Shown one piece after another: positions 15,099 to 64,000 of a DNA stretch of 64,000 bases. Position 1 is the stretch's first letter; each line of letters begins with the position of its first letter. Made by a program: the position numbers and the translations under genes. This stretch comes from Antedon mediterranea (taxonomy: Eukaryota > Animalia > Echinodermata): the NCBI RefSeq assembly GCF_964355755.1, contig NC_092672.1, positions 21,465,237 through 21,529,236 of the forward strand, in the 5' to 3' direction. The notes beneath the pieces are model-generated. The model did not search any database. It had not been told where the DNA came from and was given only the letters and a program-made list of their open reading frames with translations.

Positions 15099-17773
15099 CT
15101 AGATTTGAACTCGTCACTTTGACGAGTTCGGGTTATCCGCGCATTCGCAACATGCACATACTTTAAACTATATGAACCTCGACAATTATTATGCCATCCT
15201 TTGACATGAAATAAATATTTTTACAGTGCTGAATTGTACCTATTTTGTAGCATACATCATATTACAGTATTTACAGAATACACTGTATATGTTATATACA
15301 GTGTAGCATAGACGGAATTACAAGACCCATCTTTTAAATCCAATTATTAACACGATGACGTCATCAAATCGACATATAAAGATAACAATTTTAGAAGATA
15401 ATTATCTAAATAATTACATTAATACAAATTTTAAGAAATTTGAATACGTAAAATATAGATGCGCGCTCTTTTAAATGTGATGAACTATGATGCAAAATAT
15501 GAAAATACGACTTTTTGTATTCAACTGGTCATATGATGACGTCACAACATCTGATTGGCAAAATATTCACATGAATTTGTATCTACAATCCAATAGCTTC
15601 CAGAAAACGTTTTAATCATGATGATCACTTTTTATTCTGACGAGCTATAACAGATTGAAATTTACTGTAAAGATGGAAATAGGTGACCCACGTTATTTAC
15701 ATTTTTAGACATGATGATGTCATAAAAAATAAAATATTTTTAAATCATGCGAAAGATAGTTGATTGACCTAGACAGTATTAAAATATCTGAGGAAATGGA
15801 ATACGTATAAGCGAGATGCGCTCTATTTAATGTGATGAGCAATAACGAAATAGACAAAAATCCTATTTTTTACATTCGTGTGGCCATACGATGACGTCAT
15901 AACATCCGAGAGGTAAAAATTCTGCATAAGTTCATATCTACAATTTATCTTCTTGCATAATAAGTTAAAAAAATTGGGGGTTACCTTCGATCCTGAAGAG
16001 CTATAATAGATTCAAAATAGGCATTATTTTGACAATATTTTATAACTTTTTCAACAGAAACGCGCGCAAATTGTATAAATCAACGTGTTCGTATGACATC
16101 ATTTTAATTTGAAATGATGTCAATCTTTTTTAAAATGACTAGGAAAGGCTGTAAAATCATATTCAAGAGAAAAACACATGATTTTCATGCTCCGTGCGCA
16201 CCTTACGCGTAAAATTTTTCGCGCGCGTGGGAATTTTTGACATGTTCAAAATGTCATGATCAGTGTAGAAAGTTGATTAGAAATTATTTTTGCGCATTTT
16301 GAAATTTTAAATGCGCGTGCGCGCGTAACTTCTTGTGAAACATGCCATTTTTAATCGGGTGTCACGAAAGCTCAGACCACGAAAGCTCAGACCCCCTAAG
16401 ACCTAAGATCACGAAAGCTAAGACCCAACACCTAAGATTACAAATACTAAGATATACTACAGCTTAAAAACAATACTTGTTTATCCATACATAATTTTAA
16501 ACACAGTAGGTTTCATTTATTACCATAAATATAATTTAATACTACCGCAAAACATAGATAAACTCACATTATTTTCGCCCGTTGAGTAAATGTATATTTT
16601 TTCTTTACAACAAACAAACTTGACGGGTTGTTTGTTGGTTTATATTTACTCCATTGTGTTGCTTCAGAGGATGTTTTTCTTACGCACCTGCCTTTCTTGT
16701 ATTTTGACTCCAAATTTGTTGACTAACTTTATCCTGAACACCACACTTTAAAATTAGGACTTATAAGTACTTTCAGAAGGAGAAACACATAATAACAAAT
16801 AAATAAATCCTTTAAATTGATGATTTTACAGATGTGTTTCTTTGTATACTGTAATATGTAACTCCTCGAGCTCCCCATGCTCAATGTTTTTGTTTCTATG
16901 GAGCGCCAAAAGAGCAACAATAATAGTACAAGTATAAAAACAGAAAGAAAACGAAACAAAAAAACTTATCATGATTTTTAAATTAAAATTTATTTGCCAG
17001 TATTTATTTCTTCGTACTTGCATGATTATACTATTATCATTACAATTTTAATTTTACATTGTTCCATCCACACTGTAGATGGACTCCACAGAGTTTTCAG
17101 CCTTCTATATAATTTTTGCTCTTTTGACGTTCCATAGAAACAAAAACATTGAACATGGCCCATGAGGTAGGCCTACTGTACTGTAGGCTAGTCATTTTGT
17201 GTGCGAGAAAAACGTCTGTAAAATCATAAATTTAAAAATGTATTTGTTACTTTTTATGTGATTCTTTTTCATGAAAGTGCCAATTCTAAGGTGTGGTATT
17301 CAGAATAAATGTTGGGAGTTAAAATACAAGGCAGGTGCGAACAATAAATATTTGTAATCTTAGGTGTTGGGTCTTAGCTTTCGTGATCTTAGGTCTTAGG
17401 GGGTCTGAGCTTTCGTGGTCTGAGCTTTCGTGACACCCATTTTTAATCCATAGAAAGTTTGAACTTGATATGACTTAAATTTTTACCAAGTGTCAATACA
17501 AAATGACTTTTGGTTTATAATCTATGACCAATCATTGAAATTCATAAAATTGCGCGTAACTTACGCTGCGCGACTCTAACGTCATTAAAAATATGGAGGT
17601 GCACAACTTCAGGTAAATGTCCATATAATGACAAAGTTATACAAAAGATATATTCACAGGCAATAGGGGATATGCTGTACACAAAATTCCGGGAAAGAAA
17701 GAAGAATAACAAAGAAGATGAAAAAGATATTTACAATCACAAGGGTTATCCTGCAACTAAGTTGCGGATAACC
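15099..17773 (-). mobile_element. HINE copy 2, head-to-tail with copy 1 and interrupted by a MULE-like MITE
   Basis: Same termini (CTAGATTTGAACTCGTCA at 15099; GTTGCGGATAACC ending 17773) and the same internal modules. An extra isolated 5' terminus lies at 17808-17837. Confidence 0.75.
16357..17438. mobile_element. Mutator/MULE-like foldback MITE
   Basis: ~90-bp perfect TIRs start GGGTGTCACGAAAGCTCAGACC. The 10-bp TSD ATTTTTAATC (16347-16356 and 17439-17448) is confirmed by empty sites in the neighbouring HINE modules. Confidence 0.88.
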
Positions 17774-20015: not shown

Positions 20016-20578
20016 GTCATGTTGGTTTTACCTGCTTGTCTTTACATTCTATTAGTATGTTAAACATTTTGTACAGTAAAGAGTTAAGTTGTACATTTTT
20101 ACCCTGTTGTTTCTTGTGTATGGGCAAAGTGTAATAAATAATTATCTTTATTGAAAATGATACCTTAATATTTTCATCTGTTGCAACTGATATTACAATT
20201 TCTTGAGTTGTAGATTGTATACCTTTGAAATCTCCTGTCTGATTCAGCAGCAGCCGGTTATCTAATGTATACATTTTAGTTTTCTTATAGTTGTTTAACT
20301 TCATAGGTAGAATAATCATGTTGTCATGCTGTATGTCATTTATTTGAATGGGTTCATACAGCACAACTTAGTTTGTTTGTATTAATAGTTTATTTACACA
20401 CTACATCTAGAAGCGATGCGAGTAAGACGTGTCGAATAATCGCTCCTGGAAATCAAACATTTCACGTGTCACACCAGCTGAATGCATTGTTACACATAGT
20501 CGCAACCTACGTTTACTATTGTTCATTTACCTCAAGGAATTTTGTTTACTCGATTTCAGTGTTTTATTTGCCCGCAAC

Positions 20579-21403
20579 ATGGGCGGTGGTAAGCCAAAAG
20601 GAGGACAGAGGGACGATTCGCCTGCAGCCAGGCCACATCGTAACCAAAAAGAGGCTGAAGGAAAAGGCATCCCTTGCCTTGAAGATAAGTTAGATAAGTC
20701 CAATTGCGACATAGACTCTAAGGAAATCGCTGGCATTATCCAATCTGAATTGAAACTCTTATTTGATGGCAAATCGGACATATTGGATAACTTAGCGAAA
20801 CAAATAACATCGATGATCAAGGACCAACTGGCTGAGCATATTATGCAAATTGTTAGTAAAGCCACTATGGATGCTCTTAGATTTGAACTTGATGAGCCGA
20901 ATGATCGCATGAAGCAAATGGAACAGGAAATCGAGGACATTAGGGAATCACTGGATGAAAGTGAACAATATTCCAGGAGGAACTGTTTGGTGATACACGC
21001 ACTGGAGGAGAAAGTAGGTGAGAATACCGATAATATTGTTACACAATTATTTAGTTCTAAGATGAACCTTACGGTGAATCATAATGACATTGATAGGAGT
21101 CACAGACTAGGCCCCAAGAAACCAAGTAACGGCAAGCCCCGGGGAGTTATTGTGAAGTTCGCTCAATACAATAAAAGAAATGAAGTTTATAAAGCAAAAA
21201 GAAAACTGAAAGGTACCGATACCTTTATACACGAGAACCTAACAATGAAAAGGATGAAATTGTTAAGAACCATCAAAACCCAGCATAATTCCGCCTTGAC
21301 CGCAGTCTGGACCCAAGATGGACGCATACATGTACTAACTAAGAATAATAAGAAGATTGTCGTAACAAAATTTTCCGATCTCAACAAACTGCATTCCACC
21401 TAA
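20579..21403 (+). CDS. LINE ORF1 protein (coiled coil + RRM, L1 transposase-22-like)
   Basis: Open from the ATG at 20579, with motifs EQYSRRNCLVIHALEE, IDRSHRLG, PRGVIVKF, FIHENLT and VWTQDGRI typical of CR1/L2 ORF1. Confidence 0.88.
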   Translation: MGGGKPKGGQRDDSPAARPHRNQKEAEGKGIPCLEDKLDKSNCDIDSKEIAGIIQSELKLLFDGKSDILDNLAKQITSMIKDQLAEHIMQIVSKATMDALRFELDEPNDRMKQMEQEIEDIRESLDESEQYSRRNCLVIHALEEKVGENTDNIVTQLFSSKMNLTVNHNDIDRSHRLGPKKPSNGKPRGVIVKFAQYNKRNEVYKAKRKLKGTDTFIHENLTMKRMKLLRTIKTQHNSALTAVWTQDGRIHVLTKNNKKIVVTKFSDLNKLHST

Positions 21404-21652
21404 TTTACCGTGTGGTAGTACATTAAATGTGAAATTGTGAGATTTCTTGTTTTTGCCCTGAAACCAGAATTTTAACTATTGTATACATTATAGACTGCAA
21501 TAACTGTTTGGTGTGTGTGCTTTATTGTGATTATTTTTATTGTAAATTGTGTTTTTTTTAATTATTGTATTGCTAACCTGCCGGTTTTTAGTCATTTATT
21601 TGAACGCCATTTTTGAATTGATTGTATTTTGTTCTTTTTCCAATACTACTTT

Positions 21653-24600
21653 ATGAGCACGACTCAATATGAAAATAAATCGAGTCCTACACATTCCATA
21701 GATTGCTTTGAAAGTGAAGAGGCTGGTTTATGCAAATATTTCACTCCAACACAACTAAATGAGCTACAGGCGCAAATTGATAACAATGGTATCTTTACAA
21801 CGTTACACATGAATGCACGTAGTCTTCCAAAACACTTCGACGAAATTAGCATTATGTTAGATACCATAGGTCGTGCGTTTGATGTACTTGGTTTCTCGGA
21901 AACCTGGATAAATAAGAACACGCCAATTGACTTATTAAATATCAATGGATACAATATGTACACTTGTAATAGAGAAGGTAGAGTCGGTGGTGGAGTTTGT
22001 CTATATTTAAAAGAACAAATCAACACCGTAACACGTGATGATTTTGTATTTAATGATAACTCCATTGATTCACTTTTTCTAGAAATAATAAACACAAACG
22101 GCAAAAATACTATTGTAGGTATGTTGTATCGACCACCAAATTCAAACGTCAACTCATTTAACTCTGATCTGGAAGAAATCTTACATAAACTTAATCGCGA
22201 AAACAAAAACTGCTATATCTTAGGAGATTTTAATCAAGACTTATTAAAATATGACATTCAAAAAACAACACAGGAATTCACAAACATTATTTATTCAACA
22301 TCTTTTAATCCATTAATCAACTTACCCAACAGAATAACATCGTCTTCTGCTACAATTTTAGATAATATTATTACAAATGATGATAACATTTCGCATTGTG
22401 GAGTAATAGTCACTGACATTACCTATCATCTACCCATTTTCATGACAACACACTTGTCATTAAATACTAACACAAAAGCTCCAATTACAAAACAAAAAAT
22501 AATTAATGATACAACATTAAATAACTTGCTTATTGCTATTTCTAATGAGGATTGGGGTGAACTATATTTATGCACAGATACCAATACATCATATAGCCTA
22601 TTTATTAAAAAACTATCCAATCTCATAGATAATAACATACCTACAAAAAGTAATAAGCCAAATGGTAATACAAAGAAAAAACCATGGATCACAACAGGAA
22701 TTTTGATTTCAATAAAAAAGAAAAATAAACTTTATAAAAAATACCTTAAAAACCCAACACAATTATTAAAAAATATATATAAAAAGTACAAAAATAAATT
22801 AACTCATTTAATTAGAATTCGGAAAAAACAATATTATTCCAAAAAACTGGATGCAGCTCGACACGATTCAAAGCAAACATGGAAAGTTTTAAATGAAGTT
22901 CTAAATAGAAAAAAATCGAGTGTTAAGCCAAATGAGGTAATTAACCATAGTAATAAAACTTTGGTATGTGATCCAAAAGGTATGTCTGACGCTTTTAATG
23001 ACTTCTTCTCCAACATTGGAAATGAATTAGCAAACAAAATACCAAATGTAAACAATTCTGACTTTAAACAATATGAAAGAGAGTCAATCCCAATCCATAT
23101 TTTTCAATCCTACGAATGAAGAAGAGGTCATTGAAATAGTTAGTCAAATCAAAAATTCAAATTCAGAAGGTGTTGATAACTTAAGTAATCGCATTCTAAA
23201 ACATATTATTGCTGCTGTGGCATCTCCTCTTGTACATATCTTTAACCTCTCTCTTGAGACAGGCATGGTCCCTGATAGTATGAAAGTAGCTAGAGTAGTT
23301 CCAATTTTTAAATCTGGCAATAAAAGTGACGTCAGTAATTATAGGCCGATCTCTATTCTGCCTACCGCTTCAAAAATTCTTGAAAAAATTGTACAAATTA
23401 GAGTAAATAATTATAATATAATTTATATCATATAAATTATGATATAATTTATATCACAAAGTTTACCATCCTTAATAATGCACAATATGGTTTCAGAAAA
23501 AACAGTTCTACTTTTAAGGCCGTTATAGATCTGGTTGAACGAATAACCGATGCGCTTGATAAGAAAAAATATACCATCGGAATATTTATTGATTTGTCAA
23601 AAGCGTTTGACACCATCAACCATGATATACTTCTTACAAAATTGGAACACTATGGCATAAGAGGCACGGCCCTTAAATGGTTTAGAAACTATATTAGTGG
23701 CAGGAAACAATTTACGTCTATTGATAACACAAGTTCGTGTTTGATGGATATAAATTGCGGTGTACCACAGGGTACAATTCTGGGGCCTCTACTTTTTATT
23801 CTGTACATTAACGATGTATTTAATTGCTCAAACTCGTTATCTTTTGTTTTATTTGCTGATGACACAAACATATCTGCATCTCACAAAAACTTGGATACGC
23901 TCATAGAACTAGTTAATGGTGAACTAAAAAATGTTTCGGATTGGTTCATGTGCAATAAACTATCAATCAACGTTAAAAAAACTAATTACATAATTTTCCG
24001 CAATCAGCGAAATCCAAGTAATTTAGAGAATGTAAATATTTATGTCAACAATAAAAGAATAGATAGAGTTAAATCGACTAAATTCCTTGGAGTACATATT
24101 GATGAATTTCTCACATATAAGAACCACATCAATGTTACAGCTAGGAAAATATCTCGATATGTAGGCATACTATATAAAGTAAGACATTTTTTACCAACCT
24201 ATGCTCTCTGGACAATATACAAATCACTCATTGAATATTAAATTATTGCAACATAATATGGTGTAGCACATTTCCAAGTTATCTAGATGAGTTATTTAAA
24301 CTCCAGAAAAGGGCATTACGAGCTATAAAATGGTCAAAGTTTAATGATTCAATGACTGAATGTTTCTATAAATTTAAACTTCTTAAAATTGCGGATATCA
24401 ATAAGTACCAAATTGGGCTTTTCATGTATAATGTTACTACTAATCAGGACGTGCGTTTTTCATCGCTCTTTATTAAAAATGGTTCTTACCATAATTATAA
24501 TACAAGATCTAAAGACAAAATGAGACTCAGAAAACGTAATCGTACTTCTACTAGTTTTACTGTGTCATGTGTGGGACCCAAATTGTGGAATGACTTGAAT

Positions 24601-24678
24601 TACGAACTACAAAGTACCAAATCAATATATATATTTAAATCATTGTTTAAAGAATATTTATTATCATTTTACAAATAA
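21653..24678 (+). pseudogene. LINE ORF2 (endonuclease-reverse transcriptase), frameshifted
   Basis: HMNARSL, FSETW, GGGVCLY, YRPPN, GDFN, NYRPISILP, DLSKAFDT, GVPQGTILGPLLF, LFADDT and KFLGV are in order. The frame is broken near 23075, 23410-23455 and 24235. Confidence 0.93.
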
Positions 24679-28667: not shown

Positions 28668-29327
28668 GTATATTGTGTGTTTATATCTTATCTTAGCTGT
28701 CTGTTAGATGGTTTGTATATTGTGTGTTTATATCTTATCTTAGCTGTATGTTAGATGGTTTGTATATTGTGTGTTTATATCTTATCTTAGCTGTATGTTA
28801 GATGGTTTGTATATTGTGTGTTTATATCTTATCTTAGCTGTATGTTAGATGGTTTGTATATTGTGTGTTTATATCTTATCTTAGCTGTATGTTAGATGGT
28901 TTGTATATTGTGTGTTTATATCTTATCTTAGCTGTATGTTAGATGGTTTGTATATTGTGTGTTTATATCTTATCTTAGCTGTATGTTAGATGGTTTGTAT
29001 ATTGTGTGTTTATATCTTATCTTAGCTGTATGTTAGATGGTTTGTATATTGTGTGTTTATATCTTATCTTAGCTGTATGTTAGATGGTTTGTATATTGTG
29101 TGTTTATATCTTATCTTAGCTGTATGTTAGATGGTTTGTATATTGTGTGTTTATATCTTATCTTAGCTGTGTGTTAGATGGTTTGTATATTGTGTGTTTA
29201 TATCTTATCTTAGCTGTATGTTAGATGGTTTGTATATTGTGTGTTTATATCTTATCTTAGCTGTATGTTAGATGGTTTGTATATTGTGTGTTTATATCTT
29301 ATCTTAGCTGTCTGTTAGATGGTTTGT
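28668..29327. repeat. 47-bp minisatellite, 14 units
   Basis: GTATATTGTGTGTTTATATCTTATCTTAGCTGTATGTTAGATGGTTT repeated almost perfectly. Confidence 0.97.
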
Positions 29328-33632: not shown

Positions 33633-34640
33633 TCTATATATAAATTTACGTAAGGGCAAAATTCGGTAAATCGCGCGTTATTTCTAGAATGTTTACTCGA
33701 TGGTATATAAAGTTGGTTCGTACTTTCGGTACTGATTTTAACCACCTGATGTAACCCTGTTTACTAATTAAATTTAGTTCGATAATTAGTTATTGACGAT
33801 TAAAACGAATTTAGGTTCAACGATTTGCCCCAAATAGGGGTGTTTTTCGATCGTAGTATACACTGTCTAATGGATGTCCATCTTGAAAAATACCCGCAGA
33901 CGATAATACGAGGATGCTTCGCATTTTCCTATCTCCTCTTACGATAATTGTTTTTAATGGCTGAAAACCGGTTGAACAGCTCGAGTACAGCATCATAATG
34001 TTGAAGACAGGCCGATTTTCTTTAAAAAATACTATTTTGATAGATTTAATATACGTTTATACAAATGTATTGATTTGCGATGAATGGAACATTCCAATCT
34101 CTGTTCCACAAGTGTCTATTCCCTCAGGTGTCGTAAAGGCAAGTCCTGTATACTCATAACAGAAATTCGATCCATTTTTTTTTTCAATCTGTGCTGCAGA
34201 GGTTGGATATAAATTTTTTTTAAACGGATAATGAGCTAACGTTTTCACTCGCCATATATTATGTACAAATCGTTATTATTGCAGTTAAACCACCCACATC
34301 ATCACCCTTCCCTCACTGGCATGAGTAGCGTTGTAAAACCAGTAGAGGATAGGCCTAAGGTACATCACATGGCCTAAACGCAGAACAACGTTGGTGGGTA
34401 GGGTAGGAACCCCGTTAGGAACCAACTTAAGTATGAATTGGCTCTAAGAAACAATTGAAAACCATTAGGCCTACTAATTAAGTTGAGTTGGATAATTTAA
34501 TATTTATTGACGATTAAATCGAATTTATGATTTTCCCCGAATAGAGGTGGTTTTCACAAATTGTTTTACATTATATAAACATATACACGTCGTAGATGTA
34601 TCGTTACATGTACTGTACTACTGTGCTAATTTCGAAATCT
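33633..34640 (+). mobile_element. Non-autonomous Helitron, copy 1 (3'-truncated)
   Basis: Starts A|TCTATATATAAATTT. About 900 bp are the reverse complement of 36895-37798 and of 63080-64000. Confidence 0.85.
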
Positions 34641-35539
34641 ACAGTATTCTAGCTAATCTTGGTTTATTTAAAACAAAAAATTGTAAATTGCTAAAAGATC
34701 ACATAACCAAAAAAAACTTGTAATTTTTATTTTTTGGTGTTAAACAGTTTATGAGAAAAAATTGCCTTGAAGCGTAACAGTATTGTGGTTATAATCAAGA
34801 AATTGCAAATTTCAAGGAAATTAAATTAGTTTACACTGAAAAGGTACACACAAGTGTAACCAACAATTCTTGAGTAAGCTACATTTTAATTTCTACATAA
34901 TGCATTGCTCTATAGTTCTAAATTTACGACTGAACCTCGCTCTTCAATATTAGTTTGAATTATACTAAATTGTTTGGTCTATCTAATTTCTTATATAGTA
35001 GTTTTCATTAATTCATTTATTTTTAATCCCATGAATTATTAAACAAATAATTACATACATCTATTATGTATTTTTGTTTATGTGCATAGTAGGATAGATA
35101 ATAAGCAGCACTTAGCACAATCAATTGATTGTCTACAAGATTACAATTCAGTCGGAGAGAGAGAGCCGCGTTGGGAAATATGACCGTTATCGCGAAATTT
35201 TCGACTTTGCATGACGTCATTAATTTTAGAAGCCCTCTCTCGGCACAGAGGCATCAACGTTTCACGCGAAAACATTAGCATAAAGTATACGTCATTTTAT
35301 AGCTGTTTAATAAACATTAATAGGCGAAAAATTAACCATATATGGTAAGATCAGTTCCTTATATGTTTAAGATGTCGCAGGTCACCTAATTTTCTGAATA
35401 ATTTGTTGGATTTGTTGTCAGTGACAGTTTCTTTCCAAAGTTCGTGTGCAGCCGTCAAAGCTGAAGTTTTCTAACTTGTGTTTGTTTACAAATTTTCCAT
35501 TAGTGGGATATGCATCCCATACAGTGAATTACCAAAAAA

Positions 35540-35985
35540 TCGGCGAGTAAGTATCAATAGGGCTTATAAATGATAATGTGTGTTGGGCATAGATCTTCAC
35601 CTTAATTTTTCCAGTTCAGTGTGCATTTTCAATCAAAATATTATTTAAGCCAAGATCAGTTTTCAATATGTCCTTTACAAGTTGCATTTGATCTTTTCCT
35701 TGATGTCACCAAATCTTAGGTTGTTAGAGTGCCTTTCAACTCGTAGCAATTCAGCTTCCATGTACAGTAGCTGAAGTATCCTGTTTAGATTTGATGCTTC
35801 ACACATTCATAGTCAAACTATCCGTTGTAGCTTTAAATTTATCCTTAAGTTTTACTTTAAAGTTCCATAACATTTCTGTCCAGCAATGCTTGTTAGCCTT
35901 GCTTTAGTGATGCTCTTTCCTTGTCAATCCTACTGTTTATGTCAGCTGCTAAGCTACCCATTTCACCACTAAATGCATTCATTCA
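35540..35985 (-). pseudogene. Decayed LINE ORF1 remnant
   Basis: Minus strand gives MEAELLRVERHS-NNLRFGDIKE..QLVKDILKTDLGLNNILIENAH*TG, matching the ORF1 pattern E..SRRNNL.F.GI.E...IERAHR.G. Confidence 0.6.
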
Positions 35986-35989
35986 TCGG

Positions 35990-36248
35990 CAGGGGTTCGA
36001 GGCTCACTCACTCCATGGTTCTGGTGGTAGAACGAGTCTTCTCGGATAAGGACTATAAACCATAGGTCCAGTGTACACATCTAGCTCGTGTGCACTTTAA
36101 AGAACCTAGTACATCTTTCGAGACGAATAGGGGGTTACCCCGGTGTATTAGTACATCACAGCCACTGATCACTAACTGGGCCCTCTGGGAGACCAGTCTT
36201 TGACTGAAGAGGTTACCCAGTATAGATATAAATTTCAATTCAATTCAA
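35990..36248 (+). mobile_element. tRNA-derived SINE with Deu/Nin-like core, 5'-truncated
   Basis: B-box GGTTCGAGG at 35994. The core GTCTTCTCGGATAAGGACTATAAACC...GCACTTTAAAGAACC...TTCGAGACGAATAGGGGGTTACCCCGGTG resembles the DeuSINE domain. (TTCAA)n tail. Confidence 0.7.
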
Positions 36249-36439
36249 CATTTTTTATTCATAGCATGTTCAGTAGGCTTAGTTTTTTACCTATTCTATG
36301 AATTTGAGTTTTCCTTGTATTCATAGTTCAAGATAAAGCACTTATAATTAATTGGTTATGAATACTCCTAGGCATATTCTTAGTAAAATGTAATGGTTTT
36401 AGACTTGCAAAATGATCAACTGTTGGGAATTAAATATTA

Positions 36440-37798
36440 CTAGATGGTACGCGAGCGAAGCGAGCGTACCATCTAGGTCGTGCCCACAGATGGTTCTCGA
36501 ATACATAATAATTTCAGCGTTAAAAAACTGGCGATTTCAAATGTACGTACCGCAGGACAAATACAGGAACGAATAAATAGACAATGTGATTTATGTACTC
36601 AACTAAAAATAGCACCCTGGGAATTACTTCCGAAAGAGAAACTTGTCAAAAAATGAGACCAATTGTTTAAGTCAAATTTAAACAAACTTAATTTGTGTTT
36701 TGTATGTAACATTAGGGTTGAGGGATGGGGAAGAGGATGGGTGGAAAGAAAGAGGAACAATTTTTAAATATATTCTTTATCTATTTAGTAACGAAATATT
36801 AATTGTTTTCATGTTTTACAAATAATATACCACTACACACAGTAAAACATTGCGATGTAATACTTTGTTGAAACTATAACCGTCTAAGTCGATTGAAATA
36901 GTACAGTACATGTAATGATGTAACATCACTACGACGTGTATATGTTTATATAATGTAAAACAATTAGTGAAAACCACCTCTATTCGGGGAAAATCATAAA
37001 TTCGATTTGATCGTCAATAAATATTAAATTATCTAACTCAACTTAATAAGTAGGCCTAATGGTTTTCAATTGTTTCTTAGAGCCAATTCATACTTAAGTT
37101 GGTTCCTACCCTACCCACCAAAGTTGTTCTGCGTTTAGGGCATGTGATGTACCGTAGGCCTATCCTCTACTGGTTTTACAACGCTACTCATGCCAGTGAG
37201 GGAAGGGTGATGATGTGGGTGGTTTAATTGCAATAATAAAGATTTGTACATAATATACGGCGAGTGAAAACGCTAGCTCATTATCCGTTTAAAAAAAATG
37301 TATATCCAACGACTGCAGCACAGATTGAAAAAAAATGGATCGAATTTCTGTTATGAGTATACAGTACTTGCCTTTACGACGCCTGAGGGAATAGACACTT
37401 GTGGAACAGAGATTGGAATGTTCCATTCATCGCAAATCAATACATTTGTATAAACGTATATTAAATCTATCAAATTAGTATTTTTTTAAGAAAATCGGCC
37501 TGTCTTCAGCATTATGATGCTGTAATCGAGCTGTTCAACCGCTTTTCAGCCATTAAAAACAATTATCGTAGGAGGAGATAGGAAAATGCGAAGCATCCTC
37601 GTATTATTGTCTGCGGGTATTTTTCAAAACGGACATCCATTAGACAGTGTATACCACGATCGAAAAACACCCCTATTTGGGGCAAATCGTTGAACCTAAA
37701 TTCGTTTTAATCGTCAATAACTAATTATCGAACTCAATTTAATTAGTAAACAGGGTTACATCAGGCGGTTAAAATCAGTACCGAAATTTATGTATAGA
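36440..37798 (-). mobile_element. Non-autonomous Helitron, copy 2 (both termini intact)
   Basis: Minus strand: A|TC at 37798 and a 3' hairpin CTAGATGGTACGC-TCGCTTCGCTC-GCGTACCATCTAG|T at 36476-36440. Inserted between A and T with no TSD. Confidence 0.88.
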
Positions 37799-49144: not shown

Positions 49145-50559
49145 TACGAAAGCCCATTAATGCCATTTTAAGTATATGTTTTTCGAACGTAATCCGTTAT
49201 AACGAATTAGTAATTCGTTTGAACGGATTAATAATTCGTTAGAACGGATTAATAATCTGTTAATTACTAATTTGTTTAAACGGATTACTAATTTGTTCAA
49301 ACGGATTACTAATCCGTTCAAACGAATTACTAATTTGTTTAAACGGATTACTAATTCGTTCAAACGAATTACTAATTTGTTTAAACGGATTACTAATTCG
49401 TTCAAACGAATTACTAATTTGTTTAAACGGATTAGTAATCCGTTCAAACGAATTACTAATTCATTCAAACGAATTAGTAATCCGTTTAAACGAATTAATA
49501 ATTTGTTTAAACAAATTAATAATTTGTTTAAACGGATTATTAATCTGTTTGAACAAATTAGTAATTCGTTTGAACGAATTAGTAATCCGTTTAAACAAAT
49601 TATTAATTTGTTTAAACAAATTAATAATTTGTTCAAACGGATTACTAATTCGTTAGAACGAATTAGTAATTCGTTTGAACAAATTAGTAATCCGTTTAAA
49701 CAAATTACTAATCCGTTTGAACGGATTCCTAATTCGTTTTAACAGATTATTAATCTGTTTAAACAAATTAGTAATTCGTTTGAACAGATTAGTAATCCGT
49801 TCAAACGAATTACAACATATTCTTTAAATGGCACTTGTTGTATATGTTGCAATTGGTTTGAACGGATTACTAATTCGTTTGAACAGATTACTAATCCGTT
49901 CAAACGAATTACTAATTTGTTTAAACAGATTAATAATCTGTTCAAACGAATTAGGAATCCGTCCAAACGGATTAGTAATTTGTTTAAACGGATTACTAAT
50001 CTGTTTAAACGAATTACTAATTCGTTTAAACGAATTAGTAATCCGTTTAAACAAATTATTAATTTGTTTAAACAAATTACTAATTTGTTTAAACGGATTA
50101 CTAATTCGTTCAAACGAATTACTAATTCGTTCAAACAGATTAGTAATCCGTTTAAACAAATTATTAATTTGTTTAAACAAATTATTAATTTGTTTAAACG
50201 GATTACTAATTCGTTTGAACGAATTAGTAATCCGTTTAAACAAATTATTAATTCGTTTAAACAAATTAGTAATCCGTTTAAACAAATTAGTAATTCGTTT
50301 GAACGAATTAGTAATTCGTTTGAACAAATTAGTAATCCGTTTAAACAAATTAGTAATTCGTTTGAACGGATTAGTAATCCGTTTAAACGAATTACAACAT
50401 ATACTTTAAATGGCACTTGTTGTATATGTTGCAATTCGTTTGAACGGATTACTAATTCGTTTGAACAGATTATTAATCCGTTCAAACGAATTACTAATTC
50501 GTTAGAACGGATTACATTCGAAAAACATATACTTAAAATGGCATTAATGGGCTTTCGTA
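49145..50559. mobile_element. IS3EU-like non-autonomous DNA transposon filled with a 21-bp palindromic repeat
   Basis: TIRs of more than 40 bp start TACGAAAGCCCATTAATGCCATTTTAAGTATATG. The 6-bp TSD AAGAAG lies at 49139-49144 and 50560-50565. TAY..RTA termini with a 6-bp TSD fit the IS3EU superfamily. Confidence 0.8.
49188..50515. repeat. 21-bp palindromic tandem repeat (TAATTCGTTTAAACGAATTA-N)
   Basis: Dozens of variant units, each a 20-bp near-palindrome plus one spacer base. Confidence 0.95.
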
Positions 50560-52412
50560 AAGAAGTGTGCCACTGTTTCTAAAGTGTAGCTTCCAAATAA
50601 ATTATTATATTATATGTAAAAAAAGTGGAGTAAAGTTACTTTAGGTAACTAATTATAAAAGGCATTCATTTTAAATGTGTTATAATTATAGCTAATTCTT
50701 TATCTTGTTATTTACTTTATTAATATTAAAAATAAACTTCCAACAGCAAGGAGTTATTTAATTACTTATGTGTACACATTCAGAATACCATAGATATATT
50801 ATAGTGAAAATATCTCTATGAGAATCTCTACCAACTTCATACTAGCCAGCAAGTTTGGAATAGCCAACATGCATTTGAGAAGTGGGGTGTGTGTAATAAT
50901 TAGAATAGCCACAAGGATATCTCAGAAAAATTAGATATTTTATCATAACTTTTTAACTACTGGACAGATTTTTTTGAAAAAAAATCTATAATAATTCTTA
51001 AAATAATGCAAGACTATAGCAATCATGCTTAATAACGAAAAAGTTATTGTGAATATTACTGAAATTGTGTTCAGACAGAATGAGTTTATATCACACTTCC
51101 TGTTCACCAAGATAAATTAAACAGATAAGATTGTAATCCTTTTTTTTCCACTTTGACTGGTGACTCTACTTGTAATGATTGTTTATTCTTACTATAGGCG
51201 CGCCTATGCCTGAACCTATTACGGTTATGGTATGCACTAAATATGTCCATCATTATGGGATTAAATATTATCCTTATTTAGGCTATTTATTAAATAATAA
51301 TATATTACGAACTGAGGCCTACTATATAGTAGGCCTATGTGTAGCCACAAATTGTTAAACGATATATAATTTAGTCCTACAATTTCACTGAACTCTAAGT
51401 ATGTGATCGTAAAAATCATATATTTTATGATATTAATATCATAAATAATTTAATTATACAAAATCAGACAAAAATAGAAGAATTTTAGTTTTGCTAAACG
51501 GTCATAATATAGACTGAAACATAAATTGAATGTCATATACAGTAATAAAAATAAGAAATTGTGTCGTTGGAATTCTAATATACGTATATTTTTGAATATT
51601 CATGAGAACAAATTATATAATTTTTTTCATGCGCGCACTAAAATATGATTTTAAAATAAGTTGGAGTCTTTAATATGCTACAAAATGCACTAGGGTTATT
51701 AAATTATAAAGTTGCTTAAACGGTAAAATTTCGATTTACCAAATGATACGTCTATGGCTTGATAAAAAATATGATTAATTTGTTAGCTGGTATAAAAACT
51801 GCGATATCTCCGTGAAAATTTACTCGATTTTTAAACGGTTTTTTCGAGAAAAAAGCTCAAAGAACAATGAACAACTGCACAAAGGTCATGCTTCACTATG
51901 ATGTATTAGAAACTACTGCGCAGCCTCTGTTTACTTTTACTGAAAAAATGGTTTACAAATTGATAACTGTATTTCAAATGAAGACTATGTTATTGTTACA
52001 TGCAAAAAAGCACTGAATTCAAGACTGACATTTTTGTACAGGCAGACTAACTTCTTAGACATACAAAGTAGACACTTTTATGCTCTGCAATAATTCAATG
52101 TGTTTTCGACTACTGTATGCTACATCAGTCTGGTATTCTGGTATAACTTCACTCCTCAAAATAAACTGTAACCCTAAATAAAATTGTACAGTTTTTTCTT
52201 ATCACCCACTAACAATCAACCACTAATGAAACAATTTCATTAACCACTAACGTAATAACAGTAGAAAATGTGGGTTATTATGGAAATATTCTGGAATTTT
52301 TGTCGAGAAAACATTTTCGAATTTGTTGAACTTCAGTTTTAATCCTATGTGTGTTCTCTATGTTTTTCTTCTCCAAGACAAATATGTTACTTCATTTTTC
52401 ACATGTACAGTA

Positions 52413-52479
52413 TGTCTAGTGGTATGATTCTCGCTTGGGGTGCGAGAGGTCCCGGGTTCAATTCCCGGACGAGCCCCCA
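52413..52479 (+). pseudogene. Reverse-transcribed copy of mature tRNA-Pro (positions 9 to CCA), an extended PBS
   Basis: Matches eukaryotic tRNA-Pro from the D-stem to GAGCCC, followed by CCA (52477-52479). The 5' acceptor strand is absent. Anticodon GGG at 52437-52439. Confidence 0.9.
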
Positions 52480-52483
52480 TAAA

Positions 52484-53842
52484 TGTCACACAGCCGCAAT
52501 TACGGCTCTTTCGGACATGTAATATCTGGTAACAAACGGTAAACAACGGTAAATAGCCACAACTGTACACATATAAATGCAAAAAGTAAATTTAATAATA
52601 ATCTTTGACAAACAATTCTTTCTTTTATAATCTAAACCCCCAAAAAAAAAACCACAAAAAAAACCCACAAAAAAAACCCAACCAATTCTCAAACAATGAT
52701 ACAGTATCCATATTCCCCACACAATTTATACACTTTCCCAAATTCCCAATCCTTCCAGACAAAAAACCAACAATCTTCTTATTGTCAAATAAATCCCAGC
52801 AACCCCCCTTTCAAATACAATAATATCACAAGATGAATGATTAAACAATAATAAATGTCCACAATATCGTTCCTTCTTGCCTTTCCTCCTACGCTGACAC
52901 AAAAACAAATTAGAAAGATAAAAGTTACAACGATTCTGCAACTAAACAACTCCCACGCCTCTGCTCCCGTTCTGCTTGTATTCCCAATTATAATTCTTCT
53001 CAAACTGCAACTATTTTCTGACATTATAAATAAATGAAATATAAAGTTAAGATGTTCCTTGATGTCTTTCTGTACTGCCTTATAGTATTACTTCCAACTC
53101 ACAATGTATTAATTTCATGTATATCGCTTTATTTCCTTTCTGCTTCAGCTCTACATCACCATAATTATTTCCAACTCACAATTTATTAACTTCATGTATA
53201 TCACTATATTTCCTTTCTGCTTCAGCTCTATATCACCATAATTATTTCCAACTCACAATTTATTAACTTCATGTATATCACTTTATTTCCTTTCTGCTTC
53301 AGCTCTATATCACCATAATTATTTCCAACTCACAATTTATTGACTTCATGTATATCACTGTATTTCCTTTCTGCTTCAGCTCTATATCACCATACCTATT
53401 TCCAACGCACAATTTATTAACTTCATGTATATCACTTTATTTCCTCTCTGCTTCAGCTCTATATCACCATAACTCAATTACTTCTTCTCCTGTACGTCTT
53501 AATTTCTCCTATCCATATTCACCTATCCCTTTCTGGCTTATCATAACATAGCCCTCCTTCTCTGTCTCCTCTCAATTTCCATCTCCCTCAAAATTCCCTC
53601 AATTATACACATACCACCACCTTATCCTTCTCAACCAATCCGCAACTCACACACCAACTCAACTCTTACACCTCTCCTCCAATCAGCAACCTCCACACAC
53701 TCCTTCTCTGCACACACACACTCTGCTCCACTGGCTTCAAACAATAGTTCCCTAAAACAAAAGAAAGGTTCAAATAATGAAAACAAAAGGAAAAGTAAGA
53801 ATGACTTGCAAAATAAATACAAAACTCATGTCACTTGTGACA
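52484..53842 (-). mobile_element. Solo LTR of a tRNA-Pro-primed (probably Gypsy-type) retrotransposon
   Basis: TGTCACA...TGTGACA inverted termini. On minus, the LTR end is followed by TTTA and TGGGGGCTCGTCCGGGA (tRNA-Pro PBS). CAGTA lies at 53843-53847 and 52408-52412. Confidence 0.85.
53092..53472. repeat. 77-bp tandem repeat x5 inside the LTR
   Basis: TTCCAAC(T/G)CACAAT starts at 53092, 53169, 53246, 53323 and 53400. Confidence 0.93.
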
Positions 53843-54545
53843 CAGTACGCTCATGAACTTTTGTCTGTCCCACTTACTAAAGTTGAATTGTCGAGTTTGT
53901 TGAATTTAGCCTGGTTAGTGTCTGTCCGTTCATTCGTTAATTTAATATTTTAACTGTAGGACATGTGTACAGTATAGGGTCTTTACTTTTTATAGGGTCT
54001 ATTGAACCTAGTTTGACTGTCTGTCCATCCTTCTGTTCTCCTATTTGACTTCGGCCTATTAGAACAAAGCAAAAACCAAATTACCCTATCTAATTATAAT
54101 TTGAGTAGAATATAAAAAATGATAATGAAATATAATGAAACACCTAACTTTTTCTTCAAATATGTTTGATACAGAGATGCTGTACTGACACTTTTTTTGT
54201 GCAATTGTTGTGTATTAAAATTGATTGGGAAAAAAGAAATCACAAAACATTTTAATCTTTTGTAGTTTATTGTAAAGAACATTGTTTTTATTTCATTTTC
54301 ATAAATAGTAGTATACACTTACATATAAATATGATTCAGTACTGTACTGTAATACTTAAAAACATAGGGCTACAATGTCTTATGCAGTTAAGGTACAGTA
54401 AGGGGAATCATTGGACAGTATTAAACAGTTAACATTTAGAAAAAACATTTATTACACAGGAGGTACGTGGAGGATGGGTAGGGTTGAAATAAGCACAATA
54501 GTAGTACTTACCTGACTGAATGTTGAATACTGATTGTTGAATGTG

Positions 54546-54700
54546 TTCGTTCGTTCGTTCGTTCGTTTTTATTTCACAATGCATCAAACTTAATATTTTT
54601 ACATAATAAGTATTAAATAAAAAAATGCAAAGCCTGGAAAAGACCAAATAAGCTCAATATAGAGCTTTAAGCCTGGTTTCACCAGTACAAAATACACTAA
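54546..54700 (-). mobile_element. L2/CR1-type LINE 3' end
   Basis: Minus strand has a stem-loop AAGCTC-TATATT-GAGCTT inside GAAACCAGGC..CTTTTCC, then AATAAA and a (GAAC)n tail. Confidence 0.5.
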
Positions 54701-56079
54701 TAATTGTATCAATTACAATAGACAATAATTAAATATTAATTAAAGTAGTAGAAATAATATTATATATATATATATATTTTTTAAATATTTTTTTTTATAC
54801 ACAATTACGCTACAGGACAATACAAACACAACAAGAGTGTCTCTCCTGGCGGAGGGAAACAACAATTTACAAAAGAATGCCATAACATGTGGAGTAGCGT
54901 GATTGTTGTTCACCTAGTTGTGTGTGTATGTTATTATAAAATTTATTTTATCAAAATATTAAAACCACTTTAAAAATGAAATAAAAAATGTTTACATGGA
55001 ACTACACGTAATACACAAAACAGTGATATTTATTAGGTCGTCATCCTTTCACCCACTAACAAGTTTTACAATAACAAACTTTTTTTCTCATACTTTCTCT
55101 CTCTCTCTCTCTCTTTGGAAATGTGACTTATCTCCAACTTTCCATACGGAAAGTCTTACGATTAAAAAATTGATGGCCGGATGGGAACGGACTGATAATT
55201 TTAAAAATGAAAATTTGTTTTAATTAGATTAAAATTTACATTTCCATCTGATAATTAAGACACTTTCTAAAGGTTAATACATTGAAGTATAGATAAGTAA
55301 ACAAAGATTTTGGTTAAGTTTAATTTAGTAGTCAAACCATTATTTATCCAACGAGAGTTGGCGGACAAACAAACATAACTCGAATCCTAGATTTCCAACT
55401 TTCAAAGCATAACTAGTGGTTAAAATGTTGTTATGTTAGTGGTAATGTATTACATTATTGTTAATGCTATATTAGTGGTTAATTTTTGTTATAAATGTGT
55501 CATTTTAACAGAACAAATACCCAGAGATACATTATAGCATTTATGTTTAAGAGTTCAGTTAATAGTCCTATTTTGATATTTGTGTCTTTTTTGGTTTTCA
55601 TTAATTCTAAAAGCAAGTAATATAATTTAAAATACAAATTGCAGAGTTGTAAAATAAATGTTTCAAACATGCAGTTGCAAATAAAAAAAAGGCAAATTAC
55701 TAAAAGTAATGACAATGCTGTGGGTGGCTGGATCTCAATGGAAATAAAAAAACAAAAAGCTAAATCAAAACGATAAAGTAAAAGTTAAAACAGCCAGACA
55801 TTTTAATATAGATATCTTCTTTATTGTTTGTGTATAAATGGACATTTATTTATGTTTTGTTAATATTTTTTAATTATATGTCAGTCACATATTTTCCATC
55901 CTCATGTTTGGTGTAAGACATTAAAACTGCATTTATTGTCATGTTTTCTGAGCTTTCAAAGTCTGTTCTTTAATATCAGGTGAAACTGGAGAACAACCTG
56001 GTTGAATATTCTAGCACTCTAATATCGTTCTATGTTTAATAATGTCTTGATATGTGGTGAAAGGAATGTTTGATAGTTG

Positions 56080-62799: not shown

Positions 62800-64000
62800 T
62801 CTCGAATACATAATAATTTCAGCGTTAAAAAACTGGCAATTTCAAATGTACGTACAATAATACATGCCGTTTACACTTACAGGAACGAATAAATAGACAC
62901 TGATTTATGTACTCAACTAAAATTAGCACCCTGAGAATTACAATTTTTAAATATATTAAATATATTCTTTATCCATTTAGTAACGAAATATTAATTGTTT
63001 ACATGTTTTACAAATAATATATCACTAAACACAGTAAAACATTGCTATGTAATACTTTGTTGAAACTATCACCGTCCTAGTAGATTGAAATAGTACAGTA
63101 CATGTAACGATACATCACTGCGACGTGTATGTTTATATAATATGTAAAACAATTTGTGAAAACCACCTCTATTCGGGGAAAATCATAAAATCGATTTAAT
63201 CGTCAAATAAAAATTAAATTATCTAACTCAACTTTATTAGTAGGCCTAATGGTTTTCAATTGTTTCTTAGAGCCAATTCATACTTTGGTTCCTACCCTAC
63301 CCACCAAAGTTGTTCTGCGTTTAGGGGATGTGATGCACCGTAGGCCTATCCTCTACTGGCTTTACAACGGTACTCATGCCAGTGAAGGAAGGGTGATGAT
63401 GTGGGTGGTTTAAATGCAATAATAAAGATTTGTACATAATATACGGCGACTGAAAACGCTAGCTCATTATCCGTAAAAAAAAAATTATATCTAACCTCTG
63501 CAGCACAGATTGAAAAAAAAATGGATCGAATTTCTGTTATGAGTATACAGTACTTGCCTTTACGACGCCTGATGGAATAGACACTTGTGGAACAGAGATT
63601 GGAATGTTCTATTCATCGCAAATCAATACATTTGTATAAACGTATATTAAATCTATCAAAATAGTATTTTTTAAAGAAAAGCGGCCTGTCTTCAACATTA
63701 TGATGCTGTACTCGAGCTGTTTAACCGGTTTTCAGCCATTAAAAACAATTATCGTAAGAGGAGATAGGAAAATGCGAAGCATCCTCGTATTATCGTCTGC
63801 GGGTATTTTTCAAGACGGACACCATTAGTCAGTGTATACCACGATCGAAAAACACGCCTATTTGGGGCAAATCGTTGAACCTAAATTCGTTTTAATCGTC
63901 AATAACTAATTATCTAACTAAATTTAATTAGTAAACAGGGTTACATCAGGTGGTTAAAATCAGTACCGAAAGTACGAACTAACTTTATATACCATCGAGT
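62800..64000 (-). mobile_element. Non-autonomous Helitron, copy 3 (runs off the window, 3' hairpin missing)
   Basis: Direct repeat of 36496-37787, and it retains the 33696-33722 segment that copy 2 lacks. Confidence 0.88.

What the first reader, a model, noticed from the sequence alone, without database searches (positions are those of the whole stretch)
52408..53847. Solo LTR integrated through a copy of its own tRNA primer, with one TSD enclosing LTR plus 67 nt of tRNA-Pro
Seen: CAGTA | TG-tRNA-Pro(9-76)-CCA-TAAA-TGTCACA...1359-bp LTR...TGTGACA | CAGTA. The 5-bp duplication does not flank the LTR's own U5 end; it lies 71 bp further out, at the end of the tRNA copy, which on minus ends ...CTAGACA and mimics the true att end ...TGTGACA. 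Established: LTR reverse transcription copies only ~18 nt of the primer (stop at m1A58), RNase H removes the tRNA, and integrase joins at a terminal CA to give a 4-6 bp TSD. Inference: RT read through nearly the entire primer, integrase accepted a cryptic CA inside the tRNA copy, and LTR-LTR recombination left a solo LTR with a tRNA tail. This would be an integrase-dependent route to tRNA retrocopies, distinct from LINE TPRT. If many copies share this end, it is a tRNA-capped LTR element family.
Basis: partly seen in the sequence, partly recalled or inferred. Interest (0 to 1): 0.88.

Follow-up and report, generated by a model that had tools for sequence, protein, structure and literature searches.

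The report
Retrotransposon end carrying its primer tRNA
A single retrotransposon end-repeat sits in this animal genome fused to a near-complete copy of a proline tRNA inside one 5-base duplication, most likely a one-off copying accident in which the element's enzyme copied its own mature tRNA primer and the product was probably pasted in by integrase, leaving what look like traces of tRNA chemical modifications in DNA.

Summary
Observation confirmed, with one correction. A 1359-bp LTR (minus sense) is followed by a 4-nt spacer and the reverse copy of tRNA-Pro positions 76 to 10, and CAGTA flanks the whole. A relative's contig carries a polypurine tract exactly at 53842, fixing the U3 end; one 151-nt record joins the two flanks with neither tRNA nor LTR. 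New here: three marks of a mature tRNA template. These are CCA; a GGG anticodon, which eukaryotes lack but inosine-34 gives on reverse transcription; and an end at G10 plus one base, the known stop at m1G9 of tRNA-Pro-AGG. The terminal CA is therefore not templated: RT likely made it. Best reading: primer read-through, integrase-type joining, then LTR-LTR recombination (0.5). Main rival: direct insertion of an LTR-sized strong-stop cDNA (0.27). A 'tRNA-capped family' is unlikely, since the tail lies outside the transcript. Not tested: what follows U5 in other copies, the host's tRNA genes, the family's TSD length. Laboratory precedents keep 2-15 nt of primer site. This scan noted a similar LTR plus 51-nt tRNA-Pro copy, without TSD, in another genome (unchecked).

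The parts
52408..52412 (.). Left copy of the 5-bp duplication CAGTA (or 4-bp CAGT plus one inserted base)
52413..52413 (-). [quoted passage not shown]
   Evidence: human position 9 from PMC7293042 oligo
52414..52479 (+). Copy of tRNA-Pro positions 10-76 with CCA; anticodon GGG at 52437-52439; anticodon stem 5 of 5 and T stem 5 of 5 pairs intact, D stem 3 of 4; 5' acceptor strand absent
52462..52479 (-). The 18 nt that form a standard primer-binding site (complement of tRNA 59-76)
   Evidence: position numbering; 18-nt rule from PMC8599865
52480..52483 (-). Unprocessed 4-nt U5-PBS spacer; mirror image of the 4 nt between polypurine tract and U3 in a relative
52484..53842 (-). Single LTR, 1359 bp, TGTCACA...TGTGACA, U3 end at 53842, U5 end at 52484; strong G-rich skew on its sense strand (GC skew -0.58 on +)
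53087..53472 (.). Five tandem 77-bp units inside the LTR (94% matches)
53843..53847 (.). Right copy of the duplication, directly after the processed U3 end

Best explanation
This is one LTR joined at its U5 end to a copy of tRNA-Pro positions 10-76 inside a 5-bp duplication, likely made when the element's reverse transcriptase copied almost its whole mature tRNA primer, probably joined to the chromosome by integrase at both CA ends, and probably reduced to a solo LTR by later LTR-LTR recombination. Steps: (1, inferred) mature tRNA-Pro(IGG) primed minus-strand synthesis and stayed attached at the downstream U5 end. (2, inferred from sequence marks) plus-strand synthesis ran through the spacer and CCA, past m1A58, read inosine-34 as G, stalled at m1G9 after G10 and added one A, giving a ready-made ...GACA-3' end that shares 4 nt with the true att end. 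(3, inferred) integrase processed U3 normally, used that CA as the second end and made a 5-bp staggered joint; host repair replaced the RNA. (4, inferred) recombination between the two LTRs removed the internal region. It is a one-off fossil: the tail lies beyond R in the downstream LTR, so it would not be transcribed into progeny. The core (steps 1-3) I put at about 0.8, step 4 given the core at about 0.6.
For: U3 end and orientation: an X1 contig (3465 nt, depth 51.5) matches 53494-53842 with 24 other letters and 2 gaps, then runs on with a purine tract and about 3.1 kb more. Depth steps down at 53842 in 4 of 4 runs (LTR/flank ratios 460, 6.1, 2.0, 8.8). The 4 nt between that purine tract and U3 mirror the spacer at 52480-52483 (p about 0.014 by composition), so spacer plus CCA is likely the family's native PBS junction. 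Unit of insertion: one X1 record matches 52380-52408 at 26 of 29 letters (counted by eye) and passes straight to 53848 with no tRNA or LTR. Mature template: I34 is encoded A and reads G in cDNA, eukaryotes lack tRNA-Pro-GGG, and human tRNA-Pro-AGG showed no misincorporation at G37 (PMC8062790). tRNA-Pro-AGG is fully m1G9-modified in yeast and human and RT stops at G10 (PMC3708533; PMC7293042). Position 26 is T, so no dimethyl-G block. Precedent for primer-site remnants at the 3' junction with a normal 5' junction in HIV and MLV (PMC2797772) and on about half of Tf1 cDNAs (PMC11042837). Ty1 integrase inserts foreign DNA ending in TG...CA with 5-bp duplications (PMC2939329).
Against: Over-extended strong-stop DNA is described as blocking plus-strand completion and integration (PMC8599865), so a second strong-stop DNA or an intermolecular transfer must be assumed. 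RNase H should nick the tRNA behind the polymerase and leave a single-stranded end, a poor integrase substrate (own knowledge). The flank-to-flank record is one record of depth 2.6 from another organism, and it has one G where a single CAGTA predicts four letters, so the pre-insertion 5-mer is not shown. The flank is probably itself a repeat, so that record may be a paralog. A 4-bp duplication plus two added bases fits equally well; PMC10886601 links animal Helenus (4-bp TSDs) to Gypsy partners, and this family's TSD length is unknown. Two letters inside the left duplication also fit tRNA positions 6-7. Host tRNA genes and the U5 ends of other copies were not read. Nothing here shows that an internal region ever existed at this site.
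Confidence: 0.5

Rival explanations
1. Born solo. An over-extended plus-strand strong-stop DNA (U3-R-U5-spacer-tRNA copy) was displaced, re-primed by a tRNA annealing to its 66-nt perfect complement, copied into a 1.4-kb double-stranded single-LTR cDNA, and inserted directly by integrase. No full-length element and no recombination were involved.
For: The insert equals such a molecule end to end. Dead-end strong-stop DNAs ending in tRNA-complementary sequence accumulate in Ty1 and Ty3 particles (PMC5371799; PMC2939329). Read-through products cannot complete strand transfer (PMC8599865). Integrase accepts short foreign DNA with TG...CA ends. An unchecked note from this scan describes another single LTR with a 51-nt tRNA-Pro copy (e1-7808317); that is a lead only.
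Against: Re-priming of a displaced strong-stop DNA and its integration were not found in any passage read. Solo LTRs by recombination are common, so being solo needs no special route (own knowledge).
Confidence: 0.27
2. One-ended integration. Integrase joined only the U3 end; the tRNA-tailed end was joined by host repair, and the duplication is 4 bp plus added bases, or 5 bp by chance.
For: Abnormal HIV/MLV 3' junctions with primer-site remnants often show micro-homology and aberrant short repeats (PMC2797772). The 4-bp reading fits, and two letters in the left duplication match tRNA positions 6-7.
Against: The end falls exactly on CA, with no loss of flank in the window, and a 5-bp duplication is the commonest integrase signature; repair joints would be expected to vary in length (own knowledge).
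Confidence: 0.12
3. The tRNA copy was there first (a tRNA pseudogene or LINE-made retrocopy), and the LTR cDNA joined it by annealing its primer-site overhang, as in integrase-independent Tf1 insertion.
For: Integrase-independent Tf1 and HIV insertions favour sites with PBS homology (PMC11042837). The window holds LINEs with RT and endonuclease domains.
Against: The flank-to-flank record has no tRNA. The duplication encloses both parts. The U3 end is precise. The copy ends at an RT-stop position with no poly(A) tail or long duplication.
Confidence: 0.06
4. A heritable structure: a family whose internal region starts with a 67-nt tRNA complement or whose LTRs are tRNA-capped (Helenus-like), with this copy truncated or solo.
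For: tRNA-containing LTRs exist (Helenus, PMC10886601), and extended tRNA homology at the PBS is reported in Candida (PMC4139406). The U5 ends of other copies were not read here.
Against: The tRNA lies outside the LTR's inverted repeat, behind a PBS spacer and in primer orientation. It keeps intact stems and CCA, unlike the degenerate Helenus tRNAs. A truncation would have to land on G10+T beside a matching 5-mer (p 0.001-0.011). A tail beyond R is not copied into progeny (established mechanism).
Confidence: 0.05

Closest known systems
Abnormal HIV-1/MLV proviral 3' junctions retaining the unprocessed dinucleotide and part of the PBS (PMC2797772; passages read)
   Same: Normal U3 junction; U5 end keeps its unprocessed spacer plus primer-derived sequence.
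   Different: 2-15 nt in repair-deficient cultured cells, often with micro-homology. Here 66 nt, far past m1A58, in an assembled animal genome, ending in CA with a 5-bp duplication.
Over-extended or dead-end plus-strand strong-stop DNA of Ty1, Ty3 and HIV-1, and PBS-tailed Tf1 cDNA (PMC5371799, PMC2939329, PMC8599865, PMC11042837; passages read)
   Same: LTR followed by a reverse copy of the primer, ending at a modified base.
   Different: Those stop at 12-18 nt or near positions 54-58 and are described as dead ends or as substrates for integrase-independent insertion. This one reaches position 10 and is integrated.
Ty1 integrase insertion of non-Ty DNA ending in TG...CA (PMC2939329; passages read)
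   Same: A non-att end with a terminal CA gives a 5-bp duplication.
   Different: Transformed PCR fragments with overexpressed integrase, not a natural primer copy.
Helenus / TRIMp3 (PMC10886601; parts 1-4 of 6 read, supplements not seen)
   Same: tRNA-derived sequence attached to an LTR element in an animal.
   Different: Helenus has a degenerate tRNA promoter inside each short LTR of a multi-copy two-LTR element. Here the tRNA is outside a 1359-bp LTR, in primer position, with CCA and marks of a mature RNA template.
LINE-made tRNA retrocopies / tailless retropseudogenes (features recalled; search listing only)
   Same: Genomic copy of a tRNA made by reverse transcription.
   Different: Those are target-primed, with longer duplications and no LTR. 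Here the 3' end is fused to an LTR through the PBS spacer.

Membership tests
Solo LTR of an LTR retrotransposon | TG...CA ends with a terminal inverted repeat | tested here: met
   7-bp perfect inverted repeat
Solo LTR of an LTR retrotransposon | Polypurine tract directly upstream of U3 in copies with an internal region | tested here: met
   one X1 contig, loose end behind 53842
Solo LTR of an LTR retrotransposon | Other copies share the LTR boundaries | tested here: inconclusive
   U3 boundary met in 4 of 4 runs by depth step; U5 boundary not read in other copies
Solo LTR of an LTR retrotransposon | 4-6 bp duplication directly flanking both LTR ends | tested here: not met
   the duplication flanks LTR plus 71 bp, not the U5 end; so it is an aberrant, not an ordinary, solo LTR
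Ty3/Gypsy versus BEL or Copia superfamily | pol domain order and RT phylogeny of the internal region | not testable with these tools
   no internal region in the window, no genome held, no related locus found; a Gypsy assignment rests on recalled end motifs and on a tRNA-Pro-primed bivalve Gypsy named in PMC10886601
Reverse copy of a mature tRNA | 3' CCA | tested here: met
   not independent of an ordinary PBS
Reverse copy of a mature tRNA | Modification read-out (G for I34; end at m1G9) | tested here: met
   G34 and end at G10 against PMC8062790, PMC3708533, PMC7293042
Reverse copy of a mature tRNA | Host genes carry A34 and G9 | not tested
   host tRNA genes not read; only human and yeast oligos printed in papers were compared
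Functional tRNA gene | Complete cloverleaf with acceptor stem | tested here: not met
   ARAGORN 0 genes; acceptor pairs 2-5 absent
Helenus / TRIMp3 | tRNA-like promoter inside the LTR of a short two-LTR element | tested here: not met
   tRNA outside the inverted repeat; one LTR of 1359 bp, against at most 323 bp in PMC10886601
LINE-made tRNA retrocopy | Long duplication and/or A-tail around the tRNA alone (recalled) | tested here: not met
   no tail; the CCA runs into the spacer and LTR
Integrase-made insertion | Duplication length equal to the family's own | not tested
   no flanks of other solo or 5' LTRs were among the 24 of 151 loose ends shown

The most novel reading that the evidence does not exclude
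tRNA-Pro-primed LTR elements recurrently make LTR-sized cDNAs from over-extended strong-stop DNA, whose RT stop at m1G9 creates an att-like GACA end. Integrase inserts them directly, so some 'solo LTRs' are born solo, and genomes hold an integrase-made class of tRNA retrocopies that record the germline tRNA modification map (I34, m1G9, incomplete m1A58).
Probability: 0.2. Interest if true: 0.75.

Novelty: new variant of a known kind. Interest (0 to 1): 0.46.

Why it matters
It is a natural fossil of a reverse-transcription intermediate usually described as a dead end. If the reading holds, it shows that a retrotransposon RT can pass m1A58 in vivo and run to m1G9, and that an integrase can use a non-att CA end. 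It would give a route to CCA-bearing, G34 tRNA pseudogenes that needs no LINE, and such copies could mislead tRNA annotation (a 'Pro-GGG' gene in a eukaryote). A census of such tails would also test whether all solo LTRs come from recombination. As a single aberrant insertion with no sign of function, its weight is moderate.

Tried and rejected
No whole genome is held, so no copy census was possible. Self-BLAST of the window found no second copy of the LTR or of the junction flanks. A metagenome scan with a 20-nt U3-end pattern gave 6 loci; all 6 match only 22 of 23 nt, share one unrelated context and hold no LTR or tRNA, so they were rejected as chance. Viral contigs gave 0 hits for two patterns and prokaryote genomes 0 for one. 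The CrcZ hit at 53783-53854 (14.4 bits against 95, E 0.7) was rejected. The two ORFs inside the LTR have no Pfam match (2 of 2). Scan look-ups by sequence, genome and relatives gave nothing; two word look-ups were blank. Reads were obtained for the right part only (53480-55200); the left junction has no read data, which leaves the U5 ends of other copies and the host tRNA letters open. X1 holds only 0.08 of the sampled words and X2-X4 are one sample, so this is two samples, neither shown to be the window's species; contig depth is not a copy number. Four older papers (Mules 1998, Lauermann and Boeke 1997, and two recalled: Oh 2006, Goodwin and Poulter 2000) are not held. PMC7197481, PMC11251516 and PMC4691826 (passages) added only background. 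A Pol III promoter role was considered and dropped: box B is intact, but positions 8-9 of box A are replaced, and there is no expression evidence.
Full report
Observation. The window reads CAGTA (52408-52412), T (52413), a tRNA-Pro copy ending in CCA (52414-52479), TAAA (52480-52483), a 1359-bp segment bounded by TGTCACA and TGTGACA (52484-53842), and CAGTA (53843-53847). Rfam scores the tRNA at 35.6 bits over model positions 10-63, the only gathering-level hit in 64 kb. ARAGORN calls no gene. Counting back from A76, homology covers positions 10-76; the anticodon and T stems pair 5 of 5 each, the D stem 3 of 4, and acceptor pairs 2-5 are missing. Among left boundaries 52300-52499 only 52413 has an upstream 5-mer equal to the one after 53842; the chance is 0.001 for one boundary and 0.011 for ten. 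The same junction can be written as a 4-bp duplication with an insert starting AT. The host is an AT-rich (31% GC) animal genome, judged from the animal-type tRNA-Pro and the LINE content (the taxon reading is my inference).

Is it an LTR? No genome is held, so I used public runs. Five were listed and four were laid on 53480-55200: X1 (organism A, 0.08 of words) and X2-X4 (organism B, one sample, 0.46-0.51). In X1 a 3465-nt contig of depth 51.5 matches 53494-53842 (24 other letters, 2 gaps) and continues for about 3.1 kb. Its first letters, read on the minus strand, are a purine tract AGAGGGGAG followed by TAAA and then the LTR's first base. That fixes the U3 end at 53842 and the sense as minus. 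Mean depth over five LTR bins against nine flank bins is 460, 6.1, 2.0 and 8.8 times higher in X1-X4; depth is not a copy number, but the step sits at the boundary. The 4 nt before U3 in the relative are the mirror image of the spacer at 52480-52483 (p about 0.014). The unintegrated cDNA of this family would thus carry 4 extra bases at both ends; in the window they are removed at U3 and kept at U5. The U5 boundary rests on this symmetry and the 7-bp inverted repeat, not on other copies.

Did tRNA and LTR arrive together? One 151-nt X1 record (depth 2.6) matches 53848-53908 with 3 other letters. Its loose end matches 52380-52408 at 26 of 29 letters (by eye against one search's print-out; chance about 1e-11). 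It holds neither tRNA nor LTR. It has one G where a single CAGTA predicts four letters, so it does not show the pre-insertion 5-mer. In organism B the right flank is covered by contigs far deeper than the shallowest ones (for example 425 against 12-28 in X4), so the flank is probably a repeat and the record may be a paralog. Only 24 of 151 loose ends were shown.

What was the template? Three marks point to a mature, modified tRNA-Pro(IGG). First, CCA, which any PBS would have. Second, G at position 34: PMC8062790 (passages) states that I34 is encoded as A and yields G in cDNA, that eukaryotes lack tRNA-Pro-GGG, and that human tRNA-Pro-AGG shows no misincorporation at G37. Third, the copy ends at G10 plus one base: tRNA-Pro-AGG is quantitatively m1G9-modified in yeast, with the RT stop at G10 (PMC3708533, passages), and virtually fully so in human cells (PMC7293042, passages). 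Against the human oligos printed there (positions 1-19 and 32-60, compared by eye) the copy differs at 9, 16, 34 and 59; 16 and 59 may be host differences, untested. A templated copy through positions 10-9-8 would end GACCA on the element strand, but the window has GACA. So the CA was made by RT, by adding or misincorporating A at m1G9 (non-templated addition is noted for Tf1 RT and for TGIRT) or by skipping G9. The modification status in this host is extrapolated from yeast and human.

How was it integrated? Plus-strand synthesis normally stops before m1A58, and read-through is said to prevent completion and integration (PMC8599865, passages; PMC11251516, passages). Yet primer-site remnants of 2-15 nt occur at HIV and MLV 3' junctions with normal 5' junctions (PMC2797772, passages), about half of Tf1 cDNAs keep a PBS overhang (PMC11042837, passages), and Ty1 integrase inserts foreign DNA ending in TG...CA with 5-bp duplications (PMC2939329, passages). 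A precise U3 end, a CA at the other end sharing GACA with the att site, and a 5-bp duplication make integrase joining the simplest reading (core about 0.8). Two routes lead to a single LTR. A full-length cDNA with a tailed downstream LTR followed by LTR-LTR recombination uses only steps with precedent (0.5 overall). Direct insertion of a re-primed strong-stop DNA fits the insert end to end, and such dead-end DNAs accumulate in Ty3 particles (PMC5371799, passages), but the re-priming step was not found in what I read (0.27). One-ended integration with repair (0.12), annealing to an older tRNA copy (0.06) and a heritable capped family (0.05) fit less well; their evidence is listed under the rivals.

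Comparison and novelty. It works like the primer-retaining junctions and over-extended strong-stop DNAs known from laboratory systems. It is not an ordinary solo LTR (the duplication does not flank U5), not Helenus (PMC10886601, parts 1-4 of 6 read, supplements not seen; its Figure S2C on bivalve PBS use may bear on the family), and not a tRNA gene. Seven paper searches aimed at prior reports (two returned nothing) listed no genomic LTR with a near-full primer copy inside a TSD. For most hits I saw only titles and abstract starts, and older subscription-era papers are not searchable, so this is weak evidence of absence. This scan holds an unchecked note of an LTR with 51 nt of tRNA-Pro and no TSD in another genome, which suggests recurrence but is not support.

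Verdict. Real; a new variant of a known kind of reverse-transcription accident; interest 0.46. Left open: the U5 ends and TSD length of other copies, the host tRNA genes, the true empty allele, and the superfamily.

Noticed in passing
window 52480-52483 and X1 loose end behind 53842: The spacer before the PBS and the 4 nt after the polypurine tract are mirror images, extending the family's inverted repeat to 11 bp outside the integrated ends; this implies a 4-nt terminal extension, longer than the usual 2 nt (recalled).
   Followed up: partly
window 53848-55100: The flank is covered by deep, divergent contigs in organism B, so the insertion probably sits inside an older unclassified repeat.
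   Followed up: partly
window 53087-53472: Five 77-bp tandem units inside the LTR; the inner three differ from each other by 1-2 nt, the outer two by 4-9 from the rest.
   Followed up: no
window 49190-50520: A 21-bp tandem array whose two halves are inverted, with open frames of 130-279 codons on both strands.
   Followed up: no
window 33695-37786 and 62956-64000: About 900-bp inverted repeats (95%) enclosing 2.3 kb, with a further 94% copy at the window's end; looks like a non-autonomous DNA element with long terminal repeats.
   Followed up: no
window 16357-17438: Perfect 90-bp inverted repeats bounding about 1.1 kb inserted in another repeat; probably a young MITE.
   Followed up: no
window 20426-24678: Near-complete LINE: ORF1-like frame without Pfam match, endonuclease (PF03372, PF14529) and RT (PF00078) in separate frames.
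   Followed up: partly
window 5758-7532: 3' part of another LINE with RT (PF00078) and zf-RVT (PF13966), broken into three frames.
   Followed up: partly
window 2851-5114 and 28668-29327: Tandem arrays of 183 bp x 12.4 (96% matches) and 47 bp x 14 (99%).
   Followed up: no
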